DNA of 64,000 bases, taken from Dudresnaya verticillata. Its lineage: Eukaryota. Position 1 is the first letter of the stretch; each line of letters starts with the position of its first letter. A program made the translations under genes and the position numbers. The notes under the pieces were generated by a model. It did no database searches, was not told the DNA's origin, and was given only the letters and a program-made list of their open reading frames with translations. The stretch covers positions 2,294,001 through 2,358,000 of the forward strand of contig OZ374559.1 in assembly GCA_977862235.1 (NCBI GenBank). The letters are read 5' to 3'. Below are positions 7,721-47,967 of the stretch, piece by piece.

Positions 7721-7753
7721 TTCGTACTATTGACGTGGATCGACCTACGTGTT

Positions 7754-8290: not shown

Positions 8291-8300
8291 GTATATATAC
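8291..8300 (-). promoter_or_regulatory. TATA-like box upstream of the peptide-precursor gene (repeated every 3983 bp)
   Basis: gtatatatac lies about 125 bp upstream of the ATG at 8167 on the minus strand, followed by a C/A-rich leader. Confidence 0.5.
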
Positions 8301-10320: not shown

Positions 10321-10370
10321 TTATCATAAACGGAGAGCTCACTCACTTATCATAAACGGAGAGCTCACTC
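10321..10370. repeat. 26-bp-period tandem duplication within segment B (present in all nine B copies)
   Basis: ttatcataaacggagagctcactc occurs twice, separated by ac. Confidence 0.85.
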
Positions 10371-19702: not shown

Positions 19703-20116
19703 CTAACAATAGTAGTAATACCAATAGCAGTAGCGGTAGCAATAGCACCGGTACGGAGAACAGATACACCTGTAGCGGCAGATAACACGCCTGCAAAGCC
19801 CACGAGATGTGGCCTGAAGCGACTGCTTCTCGTTCACGGTAAGGCTACGAACAAGCTCCTCGTTCTTGCCGGCGCTTTCCTGAAGCATTCTGGTGGAGGT
19901 CTTCGTCTTGGAAATGAAACAGCAGGTCTTACCCATAGATCCATCGGTCGACAACTCTGAGTTGAATACATGGCAGTGGGAGTATTCGTCCTTGGCACAT
20001 TCTTTGGCGGCCTTACCCTCGTCGTCGCCTTCATGGATTTTGCATGGGCAGTCGGGAGTGGCTGTGGCGACAGCGAAGAGGGCGAGCAAGAGGGCGAGCA
20101 AGAAGAACTTGTTCAT
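19703..20116 (-). CDS. Secreted Cys-rich precursor, copy 4
   Basis: Protein identical to copy 1. Confidence 0.9.
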   Translation of the reverse strand: MNKFFLLALLLALFAVATATPDCPCKIHEGDDEGKAAKECAKDEYSHCHVFNSELSTDGSMGKTCCFISKTKTSTRMLQESAGKNEELVRSLTVNEKQSLQATSRGLCRRVICRYRCICSPYRCYCYRYCYWYYYYC

Positions 20117-23100: not shown

Positions 23101-23685
23101 GTACTACACGTACCCTAGAAATACCGTTGAGAACCTGAAGTTTCCTTACTTGTTTCCACCCCCACAACATACCGATATATTATACCACAGTGAAACACTG
23201 GATTTACGTCATAGGATTGCCATTTGTTTCAACGGCACGTACTATTGCCTATGCACCCCACCTGTCATTCAGCCTGGATACAACGCCCTACGGAACCGCT
23301 TTCCTCAAGTTTACAACAACTCCTATCGTAAATATGCGGGGTAATCAGTGCAAAGTGCAGTGCAAAGTGCAGTGCGAACCCCCTAACGCAGTGCCCACCA
23401 AACAATCCAAGCCACTCTTTTTTTGCAGCCTACATTCTAAGAACGACATTGCTTTTAAATCCCGCACTCCTACGACACAAGAAAGAAGAAACTGTTGAGA
23501 CAGAGGCACGTCTATGTGTAACAATGATCAACTGAACTGAGCAGGTGATAGGTTATCGTCTCTTTATCTTTGCTAGTTCAAAACCAGGCACTATCAAGAC
23601 TTGTACTTGTCGAGACATATTGCCTTCTGTACCATTGGTAGCACTGGTTCTATTCGTACTATTGACGTGGATCGACCTACGTGTT

Positions 23686-24099
23686 CTAACAATAGTAGTA
23701 ATACCAATAGCAGTAGCGGTAGCAATAGCACCGGTACGGAGAACAGATACACCTGTAGCGGCAGATAACACGCCTGCAAAGCCCACGAGATGTGGCCTGA
23801 AGCGACTGCTTCTCGTTCACGGTAAGGCTACGAACAAGCTCCTCGTTCTTGCCGGCGCTTTCCTGAAGCATTCTGGTGGAGGTCTTCGTCTTGGAAATGA
23901 AACAGCAGGTCTTACCCATAGATCCATCGGTCGACAACTCTGAGTTGAATACATGGCAGTGGGAGTATTCGTCCTTGGCACATTCTTTGGCGGCCTTACC
24001 CTCGTCGTCGCCTTCATGGATTTTGCATGGGCAGTCGGGAGTGGCTGTGGCGACAGCGAAGAGGGCGAGCAAGAGGGCGAGCAAGAAGAACTTGTTCAT
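23686..24099 (-). CDS. Secreted Cys-rich precursor, copy 5
   Basis: Protein identical to copy 1. Confidence 0.9.
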   Translation of the reverse strand: MNKFFLLALLLALFAVATATPDCPCKIHEGDDEGKAAKECAKDEYSHCHVFNSELSTDGSMGKTCCFISKTKTSTRMLQESAGKNEELVRSLTVNEKQSLQATSRGLCRRVICRYRCICSPYRCYCYRYCYWYYYYC

Positions 24100-27000: not shown

Positions 27001-27668
27001 GTTTAATCGGCACTAAACACTACAAGTGGCAGCAAGAAAACAAGCCGGAACTTCAGTTCCGGTATTGTTAGATAGGGCGGTAGGTACTACACGTACCCTA
27101 GAAATACCGTTGAGAACCTGAAGTTTCCTTACTTGTTTCCACCCCCACAACATACCGATATATTATACCACAGTGAAACACTGGATTTACGTCATAGGAT
27201 TGCCATTTGTTTCAACGGCACGTACTATTGCCTATGCACCCCACCTGTCATTCAGCCTGGATACAACGCCCTACGGAACCGCTTTCCTCAAGTTTACAAC
27301 AACTCCTATCGTAAATATGCGGGGTAATCAGTGCAAAGTGCAGTGCAAAGTGCAGTGCGAACCCCCTAACGCAGTGCCCACCAAACAATCCAAGCCACTC
27401 TTTTTTTGCAGCCTACATTCTAAGAACGACATTGCTTTTAAATCCCGCACTCCTACGACACAAGAAAGAAGAAACTGTTGAGACAGAGGCACGTCTATGT
27501 GTAACAATGATCAACTGAACTGAGCAGGTGATAGGTTATCGTCTCTTTATCTTTGCTAGTTCAAAACCAGGCACTATCAAGACTTGTACTTGTCGAGACA
27601 TATTGCCTTCTGTACCATTGGTAGCACTGGTTCTATTCGTACTATTGACGTGGATCGACCTACGTGTT

Positions 27669-28082
27669 CTAACAATAGTAGTAATACCAATAGCAGTAGC
27701 GGTAGCAATAGCACCGGTACGGAGAACAGATACACCTGTAGCGGCAGATAACACGCCTGCAAAGCCCACGAGATGTGGCCTGAAGCGACTGCTTCTCGTT
27801 CACGGTAAGGCTACGAACAAGCTCCTCGTTCTTGCCGGCGCTTTCCTGAAGCATTCTGGTGGAGGTCTTCGTCTTGGAAATGAAACAGCAGGTCTTACCC
27901 ATAGATCCATCGGTCGACAACTCTGAGTTGAATACATGGCAGTGGGAGTATTCGTCCTTGGCACATTCTTTGGCGGCCTTACCCTCGTCGTCGCCTTCAT
28001 GGATTTTGCATGGGCAGTCGGGAGTGGCTGTGGCGACAGCGAAGAGGGCGAGCAAGAGGGCGAGCAAGAAGAACTTGTTCAT
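27669..28082 (-). CDS. Secreted Cys-rich precursor, copy 6
   Basis: Protein identical to copy 1. Confidence 0.9.
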   Translation of the reverse strand: MNKFFLLALLLALFAVATATPDCPCKIHEGDDEGKAAKECAKDEYSHCHVFNSELSTDGSMGKTCCFISKTKTSTRMLQESAGKNEELVRSLTVNEKQSLQATSRGLCRRVICRYRCICSPYRCYCYRYCYWYYYYC

Positions 28083-31000
28083 GCTGAGAGGAGGTAGCGA
28101 ACAACGGTTGGTAGTTGGTGGTGTAGGTGATGAGTGAACACTGAGCGTGCGAAGCTTGGTGCGTTTGAAAAGTGTTGAAACGCGTTCTACTGAGGTTGAT
28201 GGGTCGTATATATACAGGTTTTGGTTTGGGGACTACTCAGCATAGGGACATTGGGATAGGGATAGAATATTGATAGCGGTTGCGTTGCTGTTTCCTTGTG
28301 ACAGGCACGGCTGGTATGCTATGAAGCGTTTTTAAGGCTTACAATGCGTATAATGCGTTCCCACGCGTGGCTCGACGGCTTGAGGGGACTCGGCGCTGGG
28401 CACTGGGGCTGCCTCATTACCAGCTCTGTAAACTAAACACAACAGCGCATGTGAGGTGTTGTTGAAGATGTGATGATAGACCACGTCCCCCTCCAGAGTC
28501 AGTTGTTGTGAATATCATACCCCGCACGCAACATACACTCACTCCTTGAATCGCCACAATGAACGCAATCGACCAAGTTGGACAGAAATGAAGCTTGGCT
28601 GCAGGACTGACCGCAAATGCCAACACAACAGTGACGAAGATCGTGAGTGCGGGTCAGGCAGTTCGGCACACCAGCAATGACCTTGGCACTTGTTGTCGCG
28701 CTTTCCCATAAGTCACAGCTCTCTGAATTTGTTTTCATTGGATAGGCCTCTGCACCTGTTGCTTTCGGTAGGTACATTGCCGAGGCCGGAGGTTGGTTGG
28801 TCGTCGTCTACTACCACACGAGTTTGCCAGTAGACGTCCGGTAAAATACCCATTACCTGAAGCCACCGCGGTACATCAATTGGACAACGGGAGTTGTCTC
28901 TCCCATGAACCGGGTGGGGAACGATCATCGCCAACGTGAAGAAGACGAAGAGAGCGTATTAGCCGAGGCAGCGAGGATGGGAAAAGTTGAGATATACATG
29001 TATAGATATGTCTACATCGTCAAGTGAGTGAAGCTTTTAGACTGCCGTGGTTGGGTCCTGACAAGGTGGGGTTCCCCACTTTGTGCGCACTCCTCGCCGC
29101 TGCCCTCGGGGCACGACCACATGCCTTCCTATTGACAATGACGCGTGATGCAGGCGCAGCATTACGGGCGATGTAGAGCGCCGATTTTGACTGTTGACCT
29201 GAAAGTGCATGAGCTGCTCCTCAGTCATTCCAACAGTTCGTTTGTCTCAACAACCTGGTTATTGAGGTTGCACTCGGATAGGTGCATGAGTCTGTTGAAC
29301 AAAATCACCTGCAACTGCAACTCTACAATTCTCTCGCCGAACGATGCCACAATTATTGCTTAACACACTGTGGTCAACTATCGAAATGAATCCTATCCCT
29401 CGATGAGTCACAGACCTTGATACCCATTCGAGCACGACGCAAGTATCAGTTTGTGTGTGTGTATGTGTGTGTTTGATGTTCTCCTTCGTCTCTAGCAACC
29501 AACCCAATTCGCATAAAGGAAGCATCCTGACCATGATTCGATTAGGCAGCTCCGTTTCTTCGGTGTCAGTTTGTGTTCCCTTGAGGGCAGTCAAGTAAGC
29601 ACCGGTAGCAGTGAACATACTCAGAAAAAATGTTCACAGTTCCGTCTCAAGTCAGATCGAATGTCTACAGCTCAGCGTTCTATTCATTCTATAAGCGAAG
29701 AGAGACCAGTACAGAGAAGGGGAGCGTTATCAACATATCAACATATTGTTGCATTTGAATAGGTCTAAAGGGCCCTATGGCAGAACATCATTCAAGCTGT
29801 TCCGGAAGCTGTATTTATGTAGTATTGTTGTGAGTATAGGAAAATATCCTGATAACAAGCTTGCAGCTTTCTACATGAGCAGTCTGTATGAGTCTGTCGT
29901 TTTGTTGCATATATACTCATTTTTACGACCGCTATGACCACGCCCTTAGATTAATGGAGGGTAGCTCGTAACCCTCGCCTGATGTTCTCCATACTGCTTC
30001 AACTTTAATTGACAGGGCAAACTCGATACCTATTATTGTTATTCGCACGCCTAAACCTGAAGTGTCATTTCTTTGTCTCCCTCTTTCCATTCGAGGCCTG
30101 CGCGAACGGAAGGAGCTCGATTAAGGAAATCCTACTGTGCTGTTATACTGCAAAATCTTATGAGCGAAGGGGCTACAAGGCACAACGATCAGCAAGGTAG
30201 TCGATCAGATGATGGAACCTCCGCATTTGTCGCTGTTATCATAAACGGAGAGCTCACTCACTTATCATAAACGGAGAGCTCACTCGAATTGATTTAGAGT
30301 TGCATTTGCCTCGCTGTGATTCATGGCAGTTCTCATCCATTCAGCCCCCTTGAAGGACTGCAGGTTATTCTTTGAGCAAAGTGTTGTACTACATAACTCA
30401 TTCATTAATAATAACTGCTTGTGAGAATACAAATCTTGCACTTGTGGTTCCGGCCACGATGGCAAGCAGGAAGGTCTACGGTACAACAGGCGCAATAAAA
30501 TAGAGGTTGTCATTCCCATTCCTCCTCTGCACAGTTTTTGATCCTCTTGTTTAGAGGTTCGAAAGTGCATAAACTGCGAGTAGAATACTAGGGACTGATA
30601 GGATTCCTTGGAAGTGAAACAATTTTCCCGTCTCAAATTCGCCTGTCCGCAGGGCTTTGAACAAAGAGGCTCAAAAGTCTCTTTACGCATGACGGCCGTG
30701 CCTAAACCGCCATTCAAGCCGCATTCAAACCCCGTTCGCCTCCAACCAATGTGTTAACATAAACAGGTCGTACGGTCGTACCAGCTCCACAGCCAACTCC
30801 CTTTTCCTCCGACAATTTTATTTCTCTTTCCAGACTACTCTCAAAGTCCTGGTCGAGTCCTGAGAAGGTAAAGCAAGTCATAGGGAAGTGGTAATTAGTG
30901 GTAAATGTGTTGGAATAAAATAAACGCAAGCAAGCGTCACCTTTATTTCAATCTATGGATCGATCCTAGGAAGGGAACGAATTGTTTAATCGGCACTAAA

Positions 31001-31651
31001 CACTACAAGTGGCAGCAAGAAAACAAGCCGGAACTTCAGTTCCGGTATTGTTAGATAGGGCGGTAGGTACTACACGTACCCTAGAAATACCGTTGAGAAC
31101 CTGAAGTTTCCTTACTTGTTTCCACCCCCACAACATACCGATATATTATACCACAGTGAAACACTGGATTTACGTCATAGGATTGCCATTTGTTTCAACG
31201 GCACGTACTATTGCCTATGCACCCCACCTGTCATTCAGCCTGGATACAACGCCCTACGGAACCGCTTTCCTCAAGTTTACAACAACTCCTATCGTAAATA
31301 TGCGGGGTAATCAGTGCAAAGTGCAGTGCAAAGTGCAGTGCGAACCCCCTAACGCAGTGCCCACCAAACAATCCAAGCCACTCTTTTTTTGCAGCCTACA
31401 TTCTAAGAACGACATTGCTTTTAAATCCCGCACTCCTACGACACAAGAAAGAAGAAACTGTTGAGACAGAGGCACGTCTATGTGTAACAATGATCAACTG
31501 AACTGAGCAGGTGATAGGTTATCGTCTCTTTATCTTTGCTAGTTCAAAACCAGGCACTATCAAGACTTGTACTTGTCGAGACATATTGCCTTCTGTACCA
31601 TTGGTAGCACTGGTTCTATTCGTACTATTGACGTGGATCGACCTACGTGTT

Positions 31652-32065
31652 CTAACAATAGTAGTAATACCAATAGCAGTAGCGGTAGCAATAGCACCGG
31701 TACGGAGAACAGATACACCTGTAGCGGCAGATAACACGCCTGCAAAGCCCACGAGATGTGGCCTGAAGCGACTGCTTCTCGTTCACGGTAAGGCTACGAA
31801 CAAGCTCCTCGTTCTTGCCGGCGCTTTCCTGAAGCATTCTGGTGGAGGTCTTCGTCTTGGAAATGAAACAGCAGGTCTTACCCATAGATCCATCGGTCGA
31901 CAACTCTGAGTTGAATACATGGCAGTGGGAGTATTCGTCCTTGGCACATTCTTTGGCGGCCTTACCCTCGTCGTCGCCTTCATGGATTTTGCATGGGCAG
32001 TCGGGAGTGGCTGTGGCGACAGCGAAGAGGGCGAGCAAGAGGGCGAGCAAGAAGAACTTGTTCAT
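31652..32065 (-). CDS. Secreted Cys-rich precursor, copy 7
   Basis: Protein identical to copy 1. Confidence 0.9.
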   Translation of the reverse strand: MNKFFLLALLLALFAVATATPDCPCKIHEGDDEGKAAKECAKDEYSHCHVFNSELSTDGSMGKTCCFISKTKTSTRMLQESAGKNEELVRSLTVNEKQSLQATSRGLCRRVICRYRCICSPYRCYCYRYCYWYYYYC

Positions 32066-35000
32066 GCTGAGAGGAGGTAGCGAACAACGGTTGGTAGTTG
32101 GTGGTGTAGGTGATGAGTGAACACTGAGCGTGCGAAGCTTGGTGCGTTTGAAAAGTGTTGAAACGCGTTCTACTGAGGTTGATGGGTCGTATATATACAG
32201 GTTTTGGTTTGGGGACTACTCAGCATAGGGACATTGGGATAGGGATAGAATATTGATAGCGGTTGCGTTGCTGTTTCCTTGTGACAGGCACGGCTGGTAT
32301 GCTATGAAGCGTTTTTAAGGCTTACAATGCGTATAATGCGTTCCCACGCGTGGCTCGACGGCTTGAGGGGACTCGGCGCTGGGCACTGGGGCTGCCTCAT
32401 TACCAGCTCTGTAAACTAAACACAACAGCGCATGTGAGGTGTTGTTGAAGATGTGATGATAGACCACGTCCCCCTCCAGAGTCAGTTGTTGTGAATATCA
32501 TACCCCGCACGCAACATACACTCACTCCTTGAATCGCCACAATGAACGCAATCGACCAAGTTGGACAGAAATGAAGCTTGGCTGCAGGACTGACCGCAAA
32601 TGCCAACACAACAGTGACGAAGATCGTGAGTGCGGGTCAGGCAGTTCGGCACACCAGCAATGACCTTGGCACTTGTTGTCGCGCTTTCCCATAAGTCACA
32701 GCTCTCTGAATTTGTTTTCATTGGATAGGCCTCTGCACCTGTTGCTTTCGGTAGGTACATTGCCGAGGCCGGAGGTTGGTTGGTCGTCGTCTACTACCAC
32801 ACGAGTTTGCCAGTAGACGTCCGGTAAAATACCCATTACCTGAAGCCACCGCGGTACATCAATTGGACAACGGGAGTTGTCTCTCCCATGAACCGGGTGG
32901 GGAACGATCATCGCCAACGTGAAGAAGACGAAGAGAGCGTATTAGCCGAGGCAGCGAGGATGGGAAAAGTTGAGATATACATGTATAGATATGTCTACAT
33001 CGTCAAGTGAGTGAAGCTTTTAGACTGCCGTGGTTGGGTCCTGACAAGGTGGGGTTCCCCACTTTGTGCGCACTCCTCGCCGCTGCCCTCGGGGCACGAC
33101 CACATGCCTTCCTATTGACAATGACGCGTGATGCAGGCGCAGCATTACGGGCGATGTAGAGCGCCGATTTTGACTGTTGACCTGAAAGTGCATGAGCTGC
33201 TCCTCAGTCATTCCAACAGTTCGTTTGTCTCAACAACCTGGTTATTGAGGTTGCACTCGGATAGGTGCATGAGTCTGTTGAACAAAATCACCTGCAACTG
33301 CAACTCTACAATTCTCTCGCCGAACGATGCCACAATTATTGCTTAACACACTGTGGTCAACTATCGAAATGAATCCTATCCCTCGATGAGTCACAGACCT
33401 TGATACCCATTCGAGCACGACGCAAGTATCAGTTTGTGTGTGTGTATGTGTGTGTTTGATGTTCTCCTTCGTCTCTAGCAACCAACCCAATTCGCATAAA
33501 GGAAGCATCCTGACCATGATTCGATTAGGCAGCTCCGTTTCTTCGGTGTCAGTTTGTGTTCCCTTGAGGGCAGTCAAGTAAGCACCGGTAGCAGTGAACA
33601 TACTCAGAAAAAATGTTCACAGTTCCGTCTCAAGTCAGATCGAATGTCTACAGCTCAGCGTTCTATTCATTCTATAAGCGAAGAGAGACCAGTACAGAGA
33701 AGGGGAGCGTTATCAACATATCAACATATTGTTGCATTTGAATAGGTCTAAAGGGCCCTATGGCAGAACATCATTCAAGCTGTTCCGGAAGCTGTATTTA
33801 TGTAGTATTGTTGTGAGTATAGGAAAATATCCTGATAACAAGCTTGCAGCTTTCTACATGAGCAGTCTGTATGAGTCTGTCGTTTTGTTGCATATATACT
33901 CATTTTTACGACCGCTATGACCACGCCCTTAGATTAATGGAGGGTAGCTCGTAACCCTCGCCTGATGTTCTCCATACTGCTTCAACTTTAATTGACAGGG
34001 CAAACTCGATACCTATTATTGTTATTCGCACGCCTAAACCTGAAGTGTCATTTCTTTGTCTCCCTCTTTCCATTCGAGGCCTGCGCGAACGGAAGGAGCT
34101 CGATTAAGGAAATCCTACTGTGCTGTTATACTGCAAAATCTTATGAGCGAAGGGGCTACAAGGCACAACGATCAGCAAGGTAGTCGATCAGATGATGGAA
34201 CCTCCGCATTTGTCGCTGTTATCATAAACGGAGAGCTCACTCACTTATCATAAACGGAGAGCTCACTCGAATTGATTTAGAGTTGCATTTGCCTCGCTGT
34301 GATTCATGGCAGTTCTCATCCATTCAGCCCCCTTGAAGGACTGCAGGTTATTCTTTGAGCAAAGTGTTGTACTACATAACTCATTCATTAATAATAACTG
34401 CTTGTGAGAATACAAATCTTGCACTTGTGGTTCCGGCCACGATGGCAAGCAGGAAGGTCTACGGTACAACAGGCGCAATAAAATAGAGGTTGTCATTCCC
34501 ATTCCTCCTCTGCACAGTTTTTGATCCTCTTGTTTAGAGGTTCGAAAGTGCATAAACTGCGAGTAGAATACTAGGGACTGATAGGATTCCTTGGAAGTGA
34601 AACAATTTTCCCGTCTCAAATTCGCCTGTCCGCAGGGCTTTGAACAAAGAGGCTCAAAAGTCTCTTTACGCATGACGGCCGTGCCTAAACCGCCATTCAA
34701 GCCGCATTCAAACCCCGTTCGCCTCCAACCAATGTGTTAACATAAACAGGTCGTACGGTCGTACCAGCTCCACAGCCAACTCCCTTTTCCTCCGACAATT
34801 TTATTTCTCTTTCCAGACTACTCTCAAAGTCCTGGTCGAGTCCTGAGAAGGTAAAGCAAGTCATAGGGAAGTGGTAATTAGTGGTAAATGTGTTGGAATA
34901 AAATAAACGCAAGCAAGCGTCACCTTTATTTCAATCTATGGATCGATCCTAGGAAGGGAACGAATTGTTTAATCGGCACTAAACACTACAAGTGGCAGCA

Positions 35001-35634
35001 AGAAAACAAGCCGGAACTTCAGTTCCGGTATTGTTAGATAGGGCGGTAGGTACTACACGTACCCTAGAAATACCGTTGAGAACCTGAAGTTTCCTTACTT
35101 GTTTCCACCCCCACAACATACCGATATATTATACCACAGTGAAACACTGGATTTACGTCATAGGATTGCCATTTGTTTCAACGGCACGTACTATTGCCTA
35201 TGCACCCCACCTGTCATTCAGCCTGGATACAACGCCCTACGGAACCGCTTTCCTCAAGTTTACAACAACTCCTATCGTAAATATGCGGGGTAATCAGTGC
35301 AAAGTGCAGTGCAAAGTGCAGTGCGAACCCCCTAACGCAGTGCCCACCAAACAATCCAAGCCACTCTTTTTTTGCAGCCTACATTCTAAGAACGACATTG
35401 CTTTTAAATCCCGCACTCCTACGACACAAGAAAGAAGAAACTGTTGAGACAGAGGCACGTCTATGTGTAACAATGATCAACTGAACTGAGCAGGTGATAG
35501 GTTATCGTCTCTTTATCTTTGCTAGTTCAAAACCAGGCACTATCAAGACTTGTACTTGTCGAGACATATTGCCTTCTGTACCATTGGTAGCACTGGTTCT
35601 ATTCGTACTATTGACGTGGATCGACCTACGTGTT

Positions 35635-36048
35635 CTAACAATAGTAGTAATACCAATAGCAGTAGCGGTAGCAATAGCACCGGTACGGAGAACAGATACA
35701 CCTGTAGCGGCAGATAACACGCCTGCAAAGCCCACGAGATGTGGCCTGAAGCGACTGCTTCTCGTTCACGGTAAGGCTACGAACAAGCTCCTCGTTCTTG
35801 CCGGCGCTTTCCTGAAGCATTCTGGTGGAGGTCTTCGTCTTGGAAATGAAACAGCAGGTCTTACCCATAGATCCATCGGTCGACAACTCTGAGTTGAATA
35901 CATGGCAGTGGGAGTATTCGTCCTTGGCACATTCTTTGGCGGCCTTACCCTCGTCGTCGCCTTCATGGATTTTGCATGGGCAGTCGGGAGTGGCTGTGGC
36001 GACAGCGAAGAGGGCGAGCAAGAGGGCGAGCAAGAAGAACTTGTTCAT
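35635..36048 (-). CDS. Secreted Cys-rich precursor, copy 8
   Basis: Protein identical to copy 1. Confidence 0.9.
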   Translation of the reverse strand: MNKFFLLALLLALFAVATATPDCPCKIHEGDDEGKAAKECAKDEYSHCHVFNSELSTDGSMGKTCCFISKTKTSTRMLQESAGKNEELVRSLTVNEKQSLQATSRGLCRRVICRYRCICSPYRCYCYRYCYWYYYYC

Positions 36049-39000
36049 GCTGAGAGGAGGTAGCGAACAACGGTTGGTAGTTGGTGGTGTAGGTGATGAG
36101 TGAACACTGAGCGTGCGAAGCTTGGTGCGTTTGAAAAGTGTTGAAACGCGTTCTACTGAGGTTGATGGGTCGTATATATACAGGTTTTGGTTTGGGGACT
36201 ACTCAGCATAGGGACATTGGGATAGGGATAGAATATTGATAGCGGTTGCGTTGCTGTTTCCTTGTGACAGGCACGGCTGGTATGCTATGAAGCGTTTTTA
36301 AGGCTTACAATGCGTATAATGCGTTCCCACGCGTGGCTCGACGGCTTGAGGGGACTCGGCGCTGGGCACTGGGGCTGCCTCATTACCAGCTCTGTAAACT
36401 AAACACAACAGCGCATGTGAGGTGTTGTTGAAGATGTGATGATAGACCACGTCCCCCTCCAGAGTCAGTTGTTGTGAATATCATACCCCGCACGCAACAT
36501 ACACTCACTCCTTGAATCGCCACAATGAACGCAATCGACCAAGTTGGACAGAAATGAAGCTTGGCTGCAGGACTGACCGCAAATGCCAACACAACAGTGA
36601 CGAAGATCGTGAGTGCGGGTCAGGCAGTTCGGCACACCAGCAATGACCTTGGCACTTGTTGTCGCGCTTTCCCATAAGTCACAGCTCTCTGAATTTGTTT
36701 TCATTGGATAGGCCTCTGCACCTGTTGCTTTCGGTAGGTACATTGCCGAGGCCGGAGGTTGGTTGGTCGTCGTCTACTACCACACGAGTTTGCCAGTAGA
36801 CGTCCGGTAAAATACCCATTACCTGAAGCCACCGCGGTACATCAATTGGACAACGGGAGTTGTCTCTCCCATGAACCGGGTGGGGAACGATCATCGCCAA
36901 CGTGAAGAAGACGAAGAGAGCGTATTAGCCGAGGCAGCGAGGATGGGAAAAGTTGAGATATACATGTATAGATATGTCTACATCGTCAAGTGAGTGAAGC
37001 TTTTAGACTGCCGTGGTTGGGTCCTGACAAGGTGGGGTTCCCCACTTTGTGCGCACTCCTCGCCGCTGCCCTCGGGGCACGACCACATGCCTTCCTATTG
37101 ACAATGACGCGTGATGCAGGCGCAGCATTACGGGCGATGTAGAGCGCCGATTTTGACTGTTGACCTGAAAGTGCATGAGCTGCTCCTCAGTCATTCCAAC
37201 AGTTCGTTTGTCTCAACAACCTGGTTATTGAGGTTGCACTCGGATAGGTGCATGAGTCTGTTGAACAAAATCACCTGCAACTGCAACTCTACAATTCTCT
37301 CGCCGAACGATGCCACAATTATTGCTTAACACACTGTGGTCAACTATCGAAATGAATCCTATCCCTCGATGAGTCACAGACCTTGATACCCATTCGAGCA
37401 CGACGCAAGTATCAGTTTGTGTGTGTGTATGTGTGTGTTTGATGTTCTCCTTCGTCTCTAGCAACCAACCCAATTCGCATAAAGGAAGCATCCTGACCAT
37501 GATTCGATTAGGCAGCTCCGTTTCTTCGGTGTCAGTTTGTGTTCCCTTGAGGGCAGTCAAGTAAGCACCGGTAGCAGTGAACATACTCAGAAAAAATGTT
37601 CACAGTTCCGTCTCAAGTCAGATCGAATGTCTACAGCTCAGCGTTCTATTCATTCTATAAGCGAAGAGAGACCAGTACAGAGAAGGGGAGCGTTATCAAC
37701 ATATCAACATATTGTTGCATTTGAATAGGTCTAAAGGGCCCTATGGCAGAACATCATTCAAGCTGTTCCGGAAGCTGTATTTATGTAGTATTGTTGTGAG
37801 TATAGGAAAATATCCTGATAACAAGCTTGCAGCTTTCTACATGAGCAGTCTGTATGAGTCTGTCGTTTTGTTGCATATATACTCATTTTTACGACCGCTA
37901 TGACCACGCCCTTAGATTAATGGAGGGTAGCTCGTAACCCTCGCCTGATGTTCTCCATACTGCTTCAACTTTAATTGACAGGGCAAACTCGATACCTATT
38001 ATTGTTATTCGCACGCCTAAACCTGAAGTGTCATTTCTTTGTCTCCCTCTTTCCATTCGAGGCCTGCGCGAACGGAAGGAGCTCGATTAAGGAAATCCTA
38101 CTGTGCTGTTATACTGCAAAATCTTATGAGCGAAGGGGCTACAAGGCACAACGATCAGCAAGGTAGTCGATCAGATGATGGAACCTCCGCATTTGTCGCT
38201 GTTATCATAAACGGAGAGCTCACTCACTTATCATAAACGGAGAGCTCACTCGAATTGATTTAGAGTTGCATTTGCCTCGCTGTGATTCATGGCAGTTCTC
38301 ATCCATTCAGCCCCCTTGAAGGACTGCAGGTTATTCTTTGAGCAAAGTGTTGTACTACATAACTCATTCATTAATAATAACTGCTTGTGAGAATACAAAT
38401 CTTGCACTTGTGGTTCCGGCCACGATGGCAAGCAGGAAGGTCTACGGTACAACAGGCGCAATAAAATAGAGGTTGTCATTCCCATTCCTCCTCTGCACAG
38501 TTTTTGATCCTCTTGTTTAGAGGTTCGAAAGTGCATAAACTGCGAGTAGAATACTAGGGACTGATAGGATTCCTTGGAAGTGAAACAATTTTCCCGTCTC
38601 AAATTCGCCTGTCCGCAGGGCTTTGAACAAAGAGGCTCAAAAGTCTCTTTACGCATGACGGCCGTGCCTAAACCGCCATTCAAGCCGCATTCAAACCCCG
38701 TTCGCCTCCAACCAATGTGTTAACATAAACAGGTCGTACGGTCGTACCAGCTCCACAGCCAACTCCCTTTTCCTCCGACAATTTTATTTCTCTTTCCAGA
38801 CTACTCTCAAAGTCCTGGTCGAGTCCTGAGAAGGTAAAGCAAGTCATAGGGAAGTGGTAATTAGTGGTAAATGTGTTGGAATAAAATAAACGCAAGCAAG
38901 CGTCACCTTTATTTCAATCTATGGATCGATCCTAGGAAGGGAACGAATTGTTTAATCGGCACTAAACACTACAAGTGGCAGCAAGAAAACAAGCCGGAAC

Positions 39001-39617
39001 TTCAGTTCCGGTATTGTTAGATAGGGCGGTAGGTACTACACGTACCCTAGAAATACCGTTGAGAACCTGAAGTTTCCTTACTTGTTTCCACCCCCACAAC
39101 ATACCGATATATTATACCACAGTGAAACACTGGATTTACGTCATAGGATTGCCATTTGTTTCAACGGCACGTACTATTGCCTATGCACCCCACCTGTCAT
39201 TCAGCCTGGATACAACGCCCTACGGAACCGCTTTCCTCAAGTTTACAACAACTCCTATCGTAAATATGCGGGGTAATCAGTGCAAAGTGCAGTGCAAAGT
39301 GCAGTGCGAACCCCCTAACGCAGTGCCCACCAAACAATCCAAGCCACTCTTTTTTTGCAGCCTACATTCTAAGAACGACATTGCTTTTAAATCCCGCACT
39401 CCTACGACACAAGAAAGAAGAAACTGTTGAGACAGAGGCACGTCTATGTGTAACAATGATCAACTGAACTGAGCAGGTGATAGGTTATCGTCTCTTTATC
39501 TTTGCTAGTTCAAAACCAGGCACTATCAAGACTTGTACTTGTCGAGACATATTGCCTTCTGTACCATTGGTAGCACTGGTTCTATTCGTACTATTGACGT
39601 GGATCGACCTACGTGTT

Positions 39618-40031
39618 CTAACAATAGTAGTAATACCAATAGCAGTAGCGGTAGCAATAGCACCGGTACGGAGAACAGATACACCTGTAGCGGCAGATAA
39701 CACGCCTGCAAAGCCCACGAGATGTGGCCTGAAGCGACTGCTTCTCGTTCACGGTAAGGCTACGAACAAGCTCCTCGTTCTTGCCGGCGCTTTCCTGAAG
39801 CATTCTGGTGGAGGTCTTCGTCTTGGAAATGAAACAGCAGGTCTTACCCATAGATCCATCGGTCGACAACTCTGAGTTGAATACATGGCAGTGGGAGTAT
39901 TCGTCCTTGGCACATTCTTTGGCGGCCTTACCCTCGTCGTCGCCTTCATGGATTTTGCATGGGCAGTCGGGAGTGGCTGTGGCGACAGCGAAGAGGGCGA
40001 GCAAGAGGGCGAGCAAGAAGAACTTGTTCAT
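39618..40031 (-). CDS. Secreted Cys-rich precursor, copy 9
   Basis: Protein identical to copy 1. Confidence 0.9.
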   Translation of the reverse strand: MNKFFLLALLLALFAVATATPDCPCKIHEGDDEGKAAKECAKDEYSHCHVFNSELSTDGSMGKTCCFISKTKTSTRMLQESAGKNEELVRSLTVNEKQSLQATSRGLCRRVICRYRCICSPYRCYCYRYCYWYYYYC

Positions 40032-43000
40032 GCTGAGAGGAGGTAGCGAACAACGGTTGGTAGTTGGTGGTGTAGGTGATGAGTGAACACTGAGCGTGCG
40101 AAGCTTGGTGCGTTTGAAAAGTGTTGAAACGCGTTCTACTGAGGTTGATGGGTCGTATATATACAGGTTTTGGTTTGGGGACTACTCAGCATAGGGACAT
40201 TGGGATAGGGATAGAATATTGATAGCGGTTGCGTTGCTGTTTCCTTGTGACAGGCACGGCTGGTATGCTATGAAGCGTTTTTAAGGCTTACAATGCGTAT
40301 AATGCGTTCCCACGCGTGGCTCGACGGCTTGAGGGGACTCGGCGCTGGGCACTGGGGCTGCCTCATTACCAGCTCTGTAAACTAAACACAACAGCGCATG
40401 TGAGGTGTTGTTGAAGATGTGATGATAGACCACGTCCCCCTCCAGAGTCAGTTGTTGTGAATATCATACCCCGCACGCAACATACACTCACTCCTTGAAT
40501 CGCCACAATGAACGCAATCGACCAAGTTGGACAGAAATGAAGCTTGGCTGCAGGACTGACCGCAAATGCCAACACAACAGTGACGAAGATCGTGAGTGCG
40601 GGTCAGGCAGTTCGGCACACCAGCAATGACCTTGGCACTTGTTGTCGCGCTTTCCCATAAGTCACAGCTCTCTGAATTTGTTTTCATTGGATAGGCCTCT
40701 GCACCTGTTGCTTTCGGTAGGTACATTGCCGAGGCCGGAGGTTGGTTGGTCGTCGTCTACTACCACACGAGTTTGCCAGTAGACGTCCGGTAAAATACCC
40801 ATTACCTGAAGCCACCGCGGTACATCAATTGGACAACGGGAGTTGTCTCTCCCATGAACCGGGTGGGGAACGATCATCGCCAACGTGAAGAAGACGAAGA
40901 GAGCGTATTAGCCGAGGCAGCGAGGATGGGAAAAGTTGAGATATACATGTATAGATATGTCTACATCGTCAAGTGAGTGAAGCTTTTAGACTGCCGTGGT
41001 TGGGTCCTGACAAGGTGGGGTTCCCCACTTTGTGCGCACTCCTCGCCGCTGCCCTCGGGGCACGACCACATGCCTTCCTATTGACAATGACGCGTGATGC
41101 AGGCGCAGCATTACGGGCGATGTAGAGCGCCGATTTTGACTGTTGACCTGAAAGTGCATGAGCTGCTCCTCAGTCATTCCAACAGTTCGTTTGTCTCAAC
41201 AACCTGGTTATTGAGGTTGCACTCGGATAGGTGCATGAGTCTGTTGAACAAAATCACCTGCAACTGCAACTCTACAATTCTCTCGCCGAACGATGCCACA
41301 ATTATTGCTTAACACACTGTGGTCAACTATCGAAATGAATCCTATCCCTCGATGAGTCACAGACCTTGATACCCATTCGAGCACGACGCAAGTATCAGTT
41401 TGTGTGTGTGTATGTGTGTGTTTGATGTTCTCCTTCGTCTCTAGCAACCAACCCAATTCGCATAAAGGAAGCATCCTGACCATGATTCGATTAGGCAGCT
41501 CCGTTTCTTCGGTGTCAGTTTGTGTTCCCTTGAGGGCAGTCAAGTAAGCACCGGTAGCAGTGAACATACTCAGAAAAAATGTTCACAGTTCCGTCTCAAG
41601 TCAGATCGAATGTCTACAGCTCAGCGTTCTATTCATTCTATAAGCGAAGAGAGACCAGTACAGAGAAGGGGAGCGTTATCAACATATCAACATATTGTTG
41701 CATTTGAATAGGTCTAAAGGGCCCTATGGCAGAACATCATTCAAGCTGTTCCGGAAGCTGTATTTATGTAGTATTGTTGTGAGTATAGGAAAATATCCTG
41801 ATAACAAGCTTGCAGCTTTCTACATGAGCAGTCTGTATGAGTCTGTCGTTTTGTTGCATATATACTCATTTTTACGACCGCTATGACCACGCCCTTAGAT
41901 TAATGGAGGGTAGCTCGTAACCCTCGCCTGATGTTCTCCATACTGCTTCAACTTTAATTGACAGGGCAAACTCGATACCTATTATTGTTATTCGCACGCC
42001 TAAACCTGAAGTGTCATTTCTTTGTCTCCCTCTTTCCATTCGAGGCCTGCGCGAACGGAAGGAGCTCGATTAAGGAAATCCTACTGTGCTGTTATACTGC
42101 AAAATCTTATGAGCGAAGGGGCTACAAGGCACAACGATCAGCAAGGTAGTCGATCAGATGATGGAACCTCCGCATTTGTCGCTGTTATCATAAACGGAGA
42201 GCTCACTCACTTATCATAAACGGAGAGCTCACTCGAATTGATTTAGAGTTGCATTTGCCTCGCTGTGATTCATGGCAGTTCTCATCCATTCAGCCCCCTT
42301 GAAGGACTGCAGGTTATTCTTTGAGCAAAGTGTTGTACTACATAACTCATTCATTAATAATAACTGCTTGTGAGAATACAAATCTTGCACTTGTGGTTCC
42401 GGCCACGATGGCAAGCAGGAAGGTCTACGGTACAACAGGCGCAATAAAATAGAGGTTGTCATTCCCATTCCTCCTCTGCACAGTTTTTGATCCTCTTGTT
42501 TAGAGGTTCGAAAGTGCATAAACTGCGAGTAGAATACTAGGGACTGATAGGATTCCTTGGAAGTGAAACAATTTTCCCGTCTCAAATTCGCCTGTCCGCA
42601 GGGCTTTGAACAAAGAGGCTCAAAAGTCTCTTTACGCATGACGGCCGTGCCTAAACCGCCATTCAAGCCGCATTCAAACCCCGTTCGCCTCCAACCAATG
42701 TGTTAACATAAACAGGTCGTACGGTCGTACCAGCTCCACAGCCAACTCCCTTTTCCTCCGACAATTTTATTTCTCTTTCCAGACTACTCTCAAAGTCCTG
42801 GTCGAGTCCTGAGAAGGTAAAGCAAGTCATAGGGAAGTGGTAATTAGTGGTAAATGTGTTGGAATAAAATAAACGCAAGCAAGCGTCACCTTTATTTCAA
42901 TCTATGGATCGATCCTAGGAAGGGAACGAATTGTTTAATCGGCACTAAACACTACAAGTGGCAGCAAGAAAACAAGCCGGAACTTCAGTTCCGGTATTGT

Positions 43001-43600
43001 TAGATAGGGCGGTAGGTACTACACGTACCCTAGAAATACCGTTGAGAACCTGAAGTTTCCTTACTTGTTTCCACCCCCACAACATACCGATATATTATAC
43101 CACAGTGAAACACTGGATTTACGTCATAGGATTGCCATTTGTTTCAACGGCACGTACTATTGCCTATGCACCCCACCTGTCATTCAGCCTGGATACAACG
43201 CCCTACGGAACCGCTTTCCTCAAGTTTACAACAACTCCTATCGTAAATATGCGGGGTAATCAGTGCAAAGTGCAGTGCAAAGTGCAGTGCGAACCCCCTA
43301 ACGCAGTGCCCACCAAACAATCCAAGCCACTCTTTTTTTGCAGCCTACATTCTAAGAACGACATTGCTTTTAAATCCCGCACTCCTACGACACAAGAAAG
43401 AAGAAACTGTTGAGACAGAGGCACGTCTATGTGTAACAATGATCAACTGAACTGAGCAGGTGATAGGTTATCGTCTCTTTATCTTTGCTAGTTCAAAACC
43501 AGGCACTATCAAGACTTGTACTTGTCGAGACATATTGCCTTCTGTACCATTGGTAGCACTGGTTCTATTCGTACTATTGACGTGGATCGACCTACGTGTT

Positions 43601-44014
43601 CTAACAATAGTAGTAATACCAATAGCAGTAGCGGTAGCAATAGCACCGGTACGGAGAACAGATACACCTGTAGCGGCAGATAACACGCCTGCAAAGCCCA
43701 CGAGATGTGGCCTGAAGCGACTGCTTCTCGTTCACGGTAAGGCTACGAACAAGCTCCTCGTTCTTGCCGGCGCTTTCCTGAAGCATTCTGGTGGAGGTCT
43801 TCGTCTTGGAAATGAAACAGCAGGTCTTACCCATAGATCCATCGGTCGACAACTCTGAGTTGAATACATGGCAGTGGGAGTATTCGTCCTTGGCACATTC
43901 TTTGGCGGCCTTACCCTCGTCGTCGCCTTCATGGATTTTGCATGGGCAGTCGGGAGTGGCTGTGGCGACAGCGAAGAGGGCGAGCAAGAGGGCGAGCAAG
44001 AAGAACTTGTTCAT
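43601..44014 (-). CDS. Secreted Cys-rich precursor, copy 10
   Basis: Protein identical to copy 1. Confidence 0.9.
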   Translation of the reverse strand: MNKFFLLALLLALFAVATATPDCPCKIHEGDDEGKAAKECAKDEYSHCHVFNSELSTDGSMGKTCCFISKTKTSTRMLQESAGKNEELVRSLTVNEKQSLQATSRGLCRRVICRYRCICSPYRCYCYRYCYWYYYYC

Positions 44015-45310
44015 GCTGAGAGGAGGTAGCGAACAACGGTTGGTAGTTGGTGGTGTAGGTGATGAGTGAACACTGAGCGTGCGAAGCTTGGTGCGTTTGA
44101 AAAGTGTTGAAACGCGTTCTACTGAGGTTGATGGGTCGTATATATACAGGTTTTGGTTTGGGGACTACTCAGCATAGGGACATTGGGATAGGGATAGAAT
44201 ATTGATAGCGGTTGCGTTGCTGTTTCCTTGTGACAGGCACGGCTGGTATGCTATGAAGCGTTTTTAAGGCTTACAATGCGTATAATGCGTTCCCACGCGT
44301 GGCTCGACGGCTTGAGGGGACTCGGCGCTGGGCACTGGGGCTGCCTCATTACCAGCTCTGTAAACTAAACACAACAGCGCATGTGAGGTGTTGTTGAAGA
44401 TGTGATGATAGACCACGTCCCCCTCCAGAGTCAGTTGTTGTGAATATCATACCCCGCACGCAACATACACTCACTCCTTGAATCGCCACAATGAACGCAA
44501 TCGACCAAGTTGGACAGAAATGAAGCTTGGCTGCAGGACTGACCGCAAATGCCAACACAACAGTGACGAAGATCGTGAGTGCGGGTCAGGCAGTTCGGCA
44601 CACCAGCAATGACCTTGGCACTTGTTGTCGCGCTTTCCCATAAGTCACAGCTCTCTGAATTTGTTTTCATTGGATAGGCCTCTGCACCTGTTGCTTTCGG
44701 TAGGTACATTGCCGAGGCCGGAGGTTGGTTGGTCGTCGTCTACTACCACACGAGTTTGCCAGTAGACGTCCGGTAAAATACCCATTACCTGAAGCCACCG
44801 CGGTACATCAATTGGACAACGGGAGTTGTCTCTCCCATGAACCGGGTGGGGAACGATCATCGCCAACGTGAAGAAGACGAAGAGAGCGTATTAGCCGAGG
44901 CAGCGAGGATGGGAAAAGTTGAGATATACATGTATAGATATGTCTACATCGTCAAGTGAGTGAAGCTTTTAGACTGCCGTGGTTGGGTCCTGACAAGGTG
45001 GGGTTCCCCACTTTGTGCGCACTCCTCGCCGCTGCCCTCGGGGCACGACCACATGCCTTCCTATTGACAATGACGCGTGATGCAGGCGCAGCATTACGGG
45101 CGATGTAGAGCGCCGATTTTGACTGTTGACCTGAAAGTGCATGAGCTGCTCCTCAGTCATTCCAACAGTTCGTTTGTCTCAACAACCTGGTTATTGAGGT
45201 TGCACTCGGATAGGTGCATGAGTCTGTTGAACAAAATCACCTGCAACTGCAACTCTACAATTCTCTCGCCGAACGATGCCACAATTATTGCTTAAATGAC
45301 ATAGTATCAT

Positions 45311-45480
45311 TCAAGCTGTTCTGGAAGCTGAGAAGCTTATTGACGTAGTATTGTTGTGAGTATAGGAAAATGTCCTGATAACAGGCTTTCATCTTTCTAC
45401 ATGAGCAGTCTGTATGAGTGTGTTCGTTTTGTTGCATATGTACTCATTTTTATGACCGCAATGAGAACGCTGTTGGATTA
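45311..45480 (+). repeat. Diverged copy of array segment B positions about 9872-10040 in the right flank
   Basis: tcaagctgttc(t/c)ggaagctg...gtagtattgttgtgagtataggaaaat(g/a)tcctgataaca...ctttctacatgagcagtctgtatgagt aligns with many substitutions and small indels. Confidence 0.85.
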
Positions 45481-47499
45481 AGTGTCAATCGCCGCAAGGT
45501 AGCTCCTCAGCCTCTTTACTGTACCTCTGATACCTAAGCCCCCTTAAGATGCTTCTCTTTTGTTCTTTCATAAATATCCCTCTCTCTTGGATTAATGGAG
45601 GTCCATTACTCTCTGGATCAATGTCGTATTATTCGACCAATTGCACCTTCTAGTAATGTCTTGGTGACGTTTTTGCTTCTAACAAGCGCCCCGTAGTCTT
45701 AAAATCGTTTGGAATGGCATATATCGGTGAAACGGGCGAGGCTGTAGATACTTACTGTGTAGGGCGTGAGTAAGGGTGCATCACGGCAAAACAACACCAC
45801 AGAAAGCGGCTAGAGGAGCGGCCATAGCCCGGTGGGACGTTTTTTGCTCCGTCCGGCATGGAGGTCGTGGGCTCGAGCCTGTGTACTCTGGGGCGTAGTG
45901 TAGTAGGCACTCTTTTGTTCTCTGACTGGTAATGATTGATGGGGGGGAGCGTTTGCCGTACTCAACTCACTCATAATGTATTGATCGAAGTAATGGATCG
46001 CAGTCGTAATGGAATCTCTCTCGGCACCTCTCGACTCATTGGAGACGTAGACTAGTGATGGTAAACATTTACTAATTGTTTAGGGTGGTCCCGCACGGGC
46101 AACTAAGACCCAGTAGCAGGCGCACCAGCACAAAGTGCCAGAGAAGCAAAGAGATACACGCAAGGAAGGGGGCTGATCGGAGGAGGGGAAGCGGTAGGGG
46201 TGGTCACGAGGAGGGTGGTGGGCGCGTCTCTGAGCACATATATGCCTGATGGTCGCGATGGTTCTGGAGACGGATTGGAGATCAGCTGCAGTAGGGTGGA
46301 GTGACGATAGTGTGCGGAGGGCTTGCGTGTGGGTACCAAGTAAGCTGCGTTTGGTAGGACACGAGGGGGGATGGGAACTAGAGCCCCCTATCTCGCATCC
46401 CAGCAACGTATCCACCGGGCGCTAATTTTCTTGCTTGTACTAGTTCCCCTGCAAGTACGACGACAACGACCCGCACCTCGTCCGAGGACCAGTATATAAA
46501 TAGCGGTTGTCACCTAATAGCTACCACCAAGAGTTTACCAGTGTAGCTCATCTGTTTGTTCATAGGTTGAATCACTCGCGATGTATTGTACGGTAGCTGA
46601 CATAGAGTGTTTTGCATGACACGCATTGCATGCTCGCTTGCGGAGATATCTTACACACACACGACGAAAATATACATTGTGATGATTGCATACAGAGTCA
46701 CTGCTATCGTTGCCGCCTCCGGCTCCACCGACCGATCTTACTTCAACAGATCCGCAGCGTTGTCTGCAAACAGTGACGATTCAGCCATAGACTCTTAAAC
46801 CAATGCACGGCATGCACTTTCCATGCAATGTACTATTCTGTATACCACTCTCGCGCTTGCCGGCTTTATGCGCATATGTGCAACAACAACTGCTGTTGTT
46901 GCTAGCAACAACTGCTGTTGTTGCTAGGGTTTAGCCTGTCGCCTGGATTGAATGCATTGGCGACATATCGGAACATCGGATCCCAGCCTGGGGCACTCGC
47001 TGTGCTTCAGTCAACTTTGGGGGTGAACGGCGCCAACAGGAGATGCAGCTTTGCAACTGCACGCGGCTTTCCAAGCCGGGCAGCAGGTGTCAAGCAGCGC
47101 ACACGTGATGTTGCATAGATCGCTTGGGATTGCTTCTGCATTGGCGTCTACGCTGCACAACAAGTACAATGGACATAGAAGGCTGTAGATAATACCGGAT
47201 GATTGCGGCAAGCACCGCTCTCTCCGCCAGCAACTCGTTTATACCGATTCATAGCCAATTCCCGTGCCCCGCTGGACCGCAGCAATGACAAACGCCCTCG
47301 TAACAGCACAATAATCCCACCAACCACCGCACCGCACCCCACTCAATCCGCGCCGACAAACAACCTCCCCCTCGCCGCCCCTCGTCCCTCCCGCCAGCTG
47401 AATAAAGCCGCAACCCACCCACGCAGGCAAGCCCCCCACCGGCGCTGCCATCCCACCCCCTTCCCTCCTCTCTCCACTCAGACCCATCCAGTGCACACC

Positions 47500-47967
47500 A
47501 TGTTCCGCCTCTCGCACTCCATCCCCCTCGCCCTGTGTCTGCTCTCCTTCCTGCTGCACGCGCCCGCGCACGCCGCCGACGCAGCGCCGCCGTGCCCGTG
47601 CCAGTGCGTGGCCGCGGCCGCGGCGCAGGACGCATGCGACAAGCTGGGCAGCGCCGCGGGCTGCTCCGTCATGGACTGCGAGGACGTCAACAAGAAGACC
47701 TCCGGAAAGACGTGCTGCGCCCTGTCCACGGGCACCGTCGACAACATTCCGGACGAGATGCGGGCCGCGGTTGAGGAGCAGAAGCGCGCAGATGCCGCGG
47801 CTGGCGAGGTTGCCGACGGCTTGGATGAGGGTGACACTGTTGTTGTTGCCAGGAAGGATGGCGATGGAGTCCACATTGTTGGCGACGCTGGGGAGGATGA
47901 GCAGACCATTCGCGATATGCTTGAGAAGGAGGAGGGGGAGTTTGAGATTCTTGAGCACAAGGAATAG
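47500..47967 (+). CDS. Secreted Cys-rich protein with CPC/GKTCC domain and acidic C-terminus; paralog of the arrayed precursor (155 aa)
   Basis: ATG at 47500 in the context cacaccATG; signal peptide MFRLSHSIPLALCLLSFLLHAPAHA; CPCQC..C..C-x13-GKTCC; Asp/Glu-rich tail; GC-rich coding bias. Confidence 0.88.
   Translation: MFRLSHSIPLALCLLSFLLHAPAHAADAAPPCPCQCVAAAAAQDACDKLGSAAGCSVMDCEDVNKKTSGKTCCALSTGTVDNIPDEMRAAVEEQKRADAAAGEVADGLDEGDTVVVARKDGDGVHIVGDAGEDEQTIRDMLEKEEGEFEILEHKE

What the first reader, a model, noticed from the sequence alone, without database searches (positions are those of the whole stretch)
43601..47967. Divergently oriented paralog shares the CPC...C-x13-GKTCC domain but carries an acidic tail instead of the cationic peptide
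Seen: array protein CPC-KIHEGDDEGKAAKE-C-AKDEYSH-C-HVFNSELSTDGSM-GKTCC aligns to CPC-QCVAAAAAQDA-C-DKLGSAAG-C-SVMDCEDVNKKTS-GKTCC. The C-x13-GKTCC spacing is identical, xVxxxE is conserved, and the paralog has exactly one extra pair of Cys, consistent with an additional disulfide. Both have signal peptides and lie head-to-head about 3.5 kb apart. The C-termini are unrelated and opposite in charge (Arg/Tyr versus Asp/Glu). Inference: the shared domain is a modular carrier, targeting or oligomerisation unit with swappable cargo. The acidic protein could neutralise, chaperone or co-assemble with the cationic peptide, as in a toxin/immunity or coacervate-adhesive pair.
Basis: partly seen in the sequence, partly recalled or inferred. 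Interest (0 to 1): 0.85.

Follow-up and report, generated by a model that had tools for sequence, protein, structure and literature searches.

The report
Amplified hairpin-peptide precursor with modular domain
Both genes carry the same undescribed small cysteine-rich module: one, present in ten near-identical tandem copies, joins it to a conserved positively charged peptide predicted to fold as a disulfide-laddered hairpin and likely released as a defence peptide, while the single-copy neighbour joins it to an acidic tail and is likely an ordinary family member, not an antidote.

Summary
The shared domain is real. A profile built only from outside relatives finds both genes (E about 1e-6 to 2e-6; next hit 0.15), and both domains are predicted to fold alike. 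It is a roughly 45-residue module, CPCxC..C..C-x4-C..GxxCC, unknown to Pfam and PDB. It occurs once, twice or eight times in other predicted secreted proteins, so 'modular' holds. Eight cysteines is the family norm (14 of 17 rows): the array protein lost a pair; the neighbour did not gain one. The neighbour is no closer to the array protein (15/45) than other family members are, lies outside the tenfold-amplified 3,983-bp unit, and shows nothing that points to partnership; binding could not be tested. The stronger finding is the array protein. It and three relatives share signal, module, linker, (T/S)SR and a 32-residue Arg/Tyr/Cys peptide (+6 to +7). The peptide's cysteines form a hairpin ladder; one relative loses exactly one predicted pair (C8/C25). 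This works like cathelicidin or BRICHOS prepro-peptides but belongs to neither family. Antimicrobial function, processing and expression are untested; a wall or adhesive role is the main rival. The host is a eukaryote, likely a red alga (recalled, not shown).

The parts
43601..44014 (-). P0001 gene, 137 aa, intronless; last of ten tandem copies; predicted prepropeptide
43958..44014 (-). Predicted signal peptide of P0001 (about residues 1-19)
   Evidence: hydropathy; same pattern in P0003-P0005
43817..43948 (-). Cys module of P0001 (residues 23-66), 6 of the family's 8 Cys, net charge about -5; predicted strand-helix-strand-strand
43700..43816 (-). Variable linker (residues 67-105) ending in the conserved (T/S)SR, the inferred cleavage site
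   Evidence: low model confidence
43604..43699 (-). 32-residue Arg/Tyr/Cys peptide (residues 106-137), +6, 8 Cys, 10 Tyr; predicted hairpin with disulfides 14-19, 12-21, 8-25 and 3-32
47500..47967 (+). P0002 gene, 155 aa, intronless, single copy in the window
47500..47577 (+). Predicted signal peptide of P0002 (about residues 1-26)
   Evidence: hydropathy
47593..47718 (+). Cys module of P0002 (residues 32-73), all 8 Cys
47719..47964 (+). Acidic tail of P0002 (82 aa, -17, no Cys), with a KR site at residues 95-96; low-confidence model; no relative found
7721..45295 (.). Tandem array, period 3,983 bp, about 9.4 periods, ten P0001 genes (first at 7754-8167); only three variable positions, one of them coding (T57I in copies 2 and 3); excludes P0002

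Best explanation
The two genes share a small, undescribed cysteine-rich module; in the ten-copy gene it likely serves as the pro-domain of a secreted precursor from which a conserved 32-residue cationic peptide, predicted to be a disulfide-laddered hairpin, would be cut and would likely act as an antimicrobial surface-defence peptide, while the neighbour is likely an older family member with an unrelated acidic tail and no special partnership. Steps: (1) shown: homology of the module, its use in 1, 2 or 8 copies, conservation of the peptide, and amplification of the peptide gene alone; (2) predicted: secretion, the module's fold with disulfides between its 1st/5th and 3rd/6th cysteines, and the hairpin ladder; (3) inferred: cleavage after (T/S)SR, help from the module and linker in folding or masking the peptide inside the cell, killing of microbes by membrane binding, and selection for higher dose behind the array; adjacency of the two genes is read as the trace of an old local duplication.
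For: Three outside relatives keep the order signal, module, linker, (T/S)SR, 32-residue peptide. Among P0001/P0003/P0004 the peptide is 28, 25 and 23 of 32 identical while the module is 19/45, 19/45 and 21/43. Cys 8:25, 12:21 and 14:19 fall on one same-parity register (about 3% of 20,000 shuffles); AlphaFold2 gives a long hairpin turning at that place (pLDDT about 67-75); P0005, found afterwards, has Tyr at both 8 and 25, a test of a prediction noted. Cross-strand Arg/aromatic pairs number 5, 4 and 5 (3%, 28% and 3% of shuffles). Charge +6 to +7. Pro-domain plus beta-hairpin peptide is the established plan of BRICHOS and cathelin precursors, and such genes occur in clusters with copy-number change (PMC10608444 section 3; PMC6265681 passages). 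P0002's domain is 15/45 identical to P0001's, the same as P0006 (15/44) and P0007 repeats (12-16 of 45-48), against 19-28 of 46-48 for the peptide-bearing relatives.
Against: No activity, processing or expression data. The peptide is unusually conserved and Tyr-rich (10 of 32) for a defence peptide, which fits a structural or receptor-binding role as well (own knowledge: host-defence peptides usually diversify fast). The whole pro-region is nearly neutral (-2, -2, +3), so simple charge masking in the same chain is weak. The same module sits in P0007, a Pro-rich, wall-protein-like repeat protein with no peptide. Models rest on 3-4 sequences (mean pLDDT 66 and 60), and disulfide distances could not be read from them. 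P0003 has 7 module Cys, lacking only the 3rd, which breaks the 3rd/6th pairing rule once. The site is a single Arg, not a dibasic site. The tree does not resolve where P0002 falls.
Confidence: 0.5

Rival explanations
1. The Tyr/Arg/Cys hairpin is a structural or adhesive element of the wall, cuticle or spore glue. Its arginines would bind acidic polysaccharides and its tyrosines would be cross-linked oxidatively; the module would be a general wall-targeting or assembly unit, and the array would supply bulk protein.
For: 10-11 Tyr in 32 residues and strong conservation; P0007 has eight modules with Pro-rich linkers and a Gly-rich end; an earlier, unchecked scan note reads cystine-ladder proteins of another red alga as wall material (a lead only).
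Against: A short peptide at a conserved basic site with a fixed start and end in 4 of 4 relatives looks like a released product; size, charge and ladder match beta-hairpin defence peptides.
Confidence: 0.25
2. One reading: the acidic protein binds and neutralises, chaperones or co-assembles with the cationic peptide in trans.
For: Adjacent, divergent, both predicted secreted, charges +6 and -17; thionin and sea-urchin precursors use acidic pieces to neutralise a cationic peptide, though within one chain; the peptide precursor's own pro-region is nearly neutral overall.
Against: Ten-to-one gene dose, with the amplified unit stopping 2.2 kb short of P0002; 3.5 kb spacing; no closer kinship than the family background; no relative with the acidic tail was found among proteins of 85-272 aa or among the 5 domain hits, while three with the peptide were.
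Confidence: 0.1
3. The module itself is the active part, a small lectin-like or inhibitor domain, and the tails are accessories; P0002 and P0006 would be the plain forms.
For: P0006/P0008 consist of two modules and little else, P0007 of eight. Red algal mucin-binding lectins HCA/HML are 9 kDa, have 14 half-cystines and a predicted tandem repeat (PMC3475265 and PMC11957679 passages), a size that fits two such modules.
Against: In the peptide-bearing proteins the module drifts (about 42-58% identity, with Cys pairs lost) while the peptide is held. HCA/HML sequences could not be obtained, so the likeness is one of size and Cys count only.
Confidence: 0.12
4. The ten-copy array is partly an assembly artefact; this would change the copy number only, not the two genes.
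For: Only three variable positions in 37.6 kb; no reads could be laid.
Against: The variants form a pattern (two private to copy 1, one shared by copies 2 and 3) and both ends are clean junctions into unique sequence.
Confidence: 0.15

Closest known systems
BRICHOS-containing precursors of polychaete beta-hairpin antimicrobial peptides (arenicin, alvinellacin, capitellacin, nicomicin)
   Same: Signal, Cys-containing pro-domain, C-terminal cationic peptide; one pro-domain used with different cargos (PMC6265681 passages).
   Different: BRICHOS is about 100 aa with two conserved Cys; this module is about 45 aa with 6-8 Cys and no Pfam match. The peptide has four predicted disulfides, not one or two.
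Cathelicidins, protegrin type
   Same: Conserved pro-domain with variable C-terminal peptide; protegrins are Arg/Cys-rich beta-hairpins (PMC8583803 passages). The CxC-x4-CxC core is recalled as the protegrin spacing, not checked here.
   Different: No cathelin domain; 32 aa against 16-18; here the peptide is the conserved part and the pro-domain the variable one.
Tachyplesin/polyphemusin/gomesin and theta-defensin cystine-ladder peptides
   Same: Arg- and aromatic-rich hairpin held by cross-strand disulfides and cation-pi pairs (PMC10608444 passages).
   Different: No sequence match in PDB at E up to 10; longer; no C-terminal Gly for amidation; no sign of backbone cyclisation from two precursors.
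Plant thionin precursors
   Different: In thionins both lie in one chain, peptide first; here the order is reversed and the strongly acidic tail is on a separate gene.
Hypnea lectins HCA and HML
   Same: Small, very Cys-rich red algal proteins with a predicted tandem repeat.
   Different: Sequences not available here; homology untested.

Membership tests
Beta-hairpin cationic host-defence peptides (structural class) | Short, cationic, Arg/aromatic-rich peptide at the end of a secreted precursor | tested here: met
   32 aa, +6 to +7, 10-11 Tyr in P0001/P0003/P0004; hydrophobic N-terminus
Beta-hairpin cationic host-defence peptides (structural class) | Two antiparallel strands with cross-strand disulfides | tested here: met
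   Predicted only: register test, AlphaFold2 hairpin at pLDDT about 67-75, joint loss of C8 and C25 in P0005
Beta-hairpin cationic host-defence peptides (structural class) | Proteolytic release and antimicrobial activity | not testable with these tools
   Conserved (T/S)SR before the peptide in 4 of 4 is only suggestive
BRICHOS-related peptide precursors | About 100-residue BRICHOS domain with two conserved Cys | tested here: not met
   45-aa module with 6-8 Cys; no Pfam family for P0001, P0003, P0004, P0005
Cathelicidins | Cathelin pro-domain | tested here: not met
   No Pfam or PDB sequence match
Theta-defensins | Cyclic backbone joined from two truncated alpha-defensin precursors | tested here: not met
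   One continuous 32-residue peptide in a precursor with no defensin match
Thionins | Signal, basic thionin domain, acidic C-terminal pro-domain in one chain | tested here: not met
   Order reversed in P0001; P0002's module is not basic (-2); no Pfam match
CS-alpha-beta defensins (for the module) | CxxxC on the helix bonded to CxC on the last strand (motif recalled) | tested here: not met
   Helix has AxxxC and the last strand CC in the alignment
CS-alpha-beta defensins (for the module) | Strand-helix-strand-strand fold match to solved members | tested here: inconclusive
   Topology is similar, but the whole-model searches gave best Z 3.0 (rmsd 3.2, 54 aligned) and best E 0.63; the module was not folded alone
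HCA/HML lectin family | Sequence and Cys-spacing match to the two-repeat 9 kDa lectins | not testable with these tools
   Primary paper not held; no held paper seen printed the sequences
Toxin/immunity-type pair (P0001 with P0002) | Genes travel and amplify together | tested here: not met
   The amplified unit holds P0001 only
Toxin/immunity-type pair (P0001 with P0002) | Conserved linkage, co-expression and binding | not testable with these tools
   No genome, no context for relatives, no runs and no complex prediction were available

The most novel reading that the evidence does not exclude
A seaweed-type eukaryote has independently evolved a cathelicidin-like system: an undescribed 8-Cys extracellular module is used as a pro-domain for interchangeable cargos, one of them a new four-disulfide laddered hairpin antimicrobial peptide whose gene has just been amplified tenfold; the acidic neighbour is a second cargo released at its own KR site. 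No gene-encoded hairpin defence-peptide family of red algae turned up in the searches run here.
Probability: 0.35. Interest if true: 0.8.

Novelty: new variant of a known kind. Interest (0 to 1): 0.58.

Why it matters
If the peptide is antimicrobial, it is a defined, synthesisable 32-mer from a group in which such peptides are described as underexplored (PMC13518417 passages). It would show a third, independent pro-domain-plus-hairpin design beside cathelin and BRICHOS, and would make algal peptide defence directly testable. If it is structural, it is a candidate for algal wall or adhesive chemistry. Either way the module is a new domain family that needs a profile. The proposed neutralising pair adds little on present evidence.

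Tried and rejected
No whole genome is held, so no genome-wide cargo catalogue. No sequencing run was listed for 43300-48300; that is no evidence on expression or copy number. Complex prediction of P0002 with the peptide was not available: no verdict. Fold search with the P0002 model never ran because the machine was busy; the P0001 model gave no clear match, which does not show a new fold. Metagenome scans: 597 and 571 pattern matches, none confirmed. ESM Atlas: no usable hit for either protein. Pfam, NCBIfam, PDB sequence searches: nothing at curated cut-offs. Word search for P0002 found no relative among 85-272 aa proteins; longer and shorter forms were not searched. Idea that P0002's post-domain helix and KR site are homologous to the precursors' linker: 88 of 5000 with an end point chosen after looking, but 4318, 693, 2531, 2869 and 250 of 5000 against five relatives with a fixed length; not accepted. 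My early note that the pro-region is acidic enough to neutralise the peptide was weakened by the counts (-2, -2, +3). Trees of the 45-residue module did not place P0002. No DNA-level similarity between the two coding sequences (best E 0.08). The host clade was not established by any search; paper searches on red algal genomes did not help. Earlier-findings look-ups by place and sequence were empty.
Full report
Setting. The window is eukaryotic: it holds a chromodomain Ty3/gypsy element, copia and other reverse-transcriptase remnants, a Cu/Zn superoxide dismutase and a weak E2F-like match. The genes examined read as single ORFs. I take the host to be a red alga from recall of such genomes; no call shows it, and no whole genome is held.

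The observation. P0001 (43601-44014, minus) and P0002 (47500-47967, plus) are as described. P0001 is the last of ten copies in a 3,983-bp array running 7721-45295; eight copies encode the same protein and two differ by T57I. The array has three variable positions. Its left end meets a retroelement-like remnant 33 bp past the first copy's stop codon (RVT_2 match at 6689-6946). P0002 is outside the repeated unit and single in the window.

Homology. Direct BLASTP is marginal (E 0.027). Relatives settle it. P0003 (found with P0001 alone) has P0001's peptide but a domain that matches P0002 at E 1e-6. P0004 followed (that query included P0002). A domain-only profile run over 1.84 billion representatives gave 5 hits at E up to 0.001: P0003-P0007; P0008 is a cluster mate of P0006. 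All six are unnamed single records. Profiles without the window proteins recover both genes from 1339 six-frame pieces with a wide gap to the next hit. AlphaFold2 gives both domains a helix followed by two strands, pLDDT about 70-80, from alignments of only 3 and 4 rows.

The module. Seventeen rows (15 distinct) give CPCxC-x9-14-C-x5-8-C-x4-C-x9-11-CC, with Ala four before the 4th Cys in 16 rows and Gly three before CC in 16. Fourteen rows have all eight Cys. P0001 lacks the 3rd and 6th, P0004 the 1st and 5th, P0003 the 3rd only. Paired losses suggest disulfides 1-5 and 3-6; P0003 is an exception. So the neighbour's 'extra' pair is the usual state. Architectures: module plus peptide (P0001, P0003, P0004, P0005), module plus acidic tail (P0002), two modules (P0006, P0008), eight modules with Pro-rich linkers and a Gly-rich end (P0007). 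No Pfam, NCBIfam, PDB sequence, Atlas or fold match was found.

The peptide. All four precursors end in (T/S)SR followed by exactly 32 residues with charge +6 or +7. Among the first three the peptide is 72-88% identical, the module 42-49%. Cys 8:25, 12:21 and 14:19 share one register (636, 624 and 612 of 20,000 shuffles; the three are not independent), leaving 3:32. The model has strands 88-100 and 105-117 of the mature chain, turning where the register predicts. P0005, seen later, has Tyr at both 8 and 25 and keeps the other six. The hairpin ladder is therefore well supported as a prediction. Signal plus pro-domain plus cationic hairpin is the plan of BRICHOS and cathelin precursors, but neither domain is present.

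The neighbour. P0002's domain shares GKTCC and the 11-residue last loop with the peptide precursors, and the short first loop with P0006 (21/44, its best match). Its identity to P0001, 15/45, equals the family background. Trees do not resolve its place. Its tail (82 aa, -17) has no relative in the searches run and a low-confidence model. A KR site sits where a second cargo could begin, but linker homology failed the unbiased test. For a neutralising pair there is adjacency and opposite charge; against it, the tenfold amplification left P0002 behind and no acidic-tail relative appeared. Binding, co-expression and synteny were untestable, so the idea stays open at about 0.1.

Mechanism, shown and inferred. 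Shown: homology, modular use, peptide conservation, amplification of one gene. Predicted: secretion, folds, disulfides. Inferred: cleavage at the single Arg, pro-domain help in folding or masking an aggregation-prone Tyr-rich hairpin, antimicrobial action, dose selection. I put about 0.95 on homology, 0.75 on a processed hairpin peptide and 0.5 on the whole reading. The peptide's strong conservation and Tyr content, the near-neutral pro-region and the wall-like P0007 keep a structural or adhesive role at about 0.25.

Literature seen. Passages only: PMC6265681, PMC13518417, PMC3475265, PMC11957679, PMC10136942, PMC8583803. PMC10608444: passages and its section 3 in full. The HCA/HML paper (PMC2279328) is not held; I saw only what two other papers say of it. 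Nine searches were seen as listings; none listed a paper describing this module or a gene-encoded hairpin peptide of red algae. The library lacks most subscription journals, and no supplements were read, so genome-paper gene tables could already list these proteins as hypothetical. An earlier scan note on cystine-ladder proteins in Cyanidioschyzon is an unchecked lead, not support.

Verdict. The value lies in the new module family and the amplified hairpin-peptide precursor, not in the proposed pair. New variant of a known kind; interest 0.58.

Noticed in passing
window 5267-5857 (-): Intronless Cu/Zn superoxide dismutase (Pfam Sod_Cu E 4.6e-29) with a hydrophobic N-terminus and many Arg, 1.9 kb left of the array; possibly a secreted oxidative-defence gene beside the peptide array.
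   Followed up: partly
window 1436-1981 (-): 181-aa ORF with a weak E2F/DP winged-helix match (E 4e-4, below the curated cut-off).
   Followed up: partly
window 41736-41903 and 45306-45481: A 170-bp stretch inside each array unit is 86% identical to the sequence just beyond the array's right end: relic of an older duplication or a small dispersed repeat near the junction.
   Followed up: partly
window 6689-7720: Copia-type reverse-transcriptase remnant (RVT_2 E 1.8e-9) and a gag-like piece (recalled; no Pfam match) abut the array; the first gene copy keeps only 33 bp of the downstream sequence that the other copies have.
   Followed up: partly
window 49236-52484 (-): Overlapping long ORFs with a weak reverse-transcriptase match (E 8e-4); the layout recalls a DIRS-type tyrosine-recombinase retroelement (recalled, not shown).
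   Followed up: no
window 53590-60808 (+): Ty3/gypsy element with gag, reverse transcriptase, RNase H, integrase and chromodomain, split over several ORFs.
   Followed up: no
window 44137-44152 and 46494-46504: A TATATATA box about 125 bp upstream of the P0001 start in every unit, and a separate TATATAAATA on the plus strand 1 kb upstream of P0002 with no convincing ORF behind it (read).
   Followed up: no
P0007: 590-aa predicted secreted protein with eight modules, Pro-rich linkers and a Gly/Asp/Arg-rich C-terminal repeat; looks like a wall or matrix protein; no Pfam match.
   Followed up: partly
window 46884-46927: Short tandem, self-complementary 22-bp repeat between the two genes.
   Followed up: no
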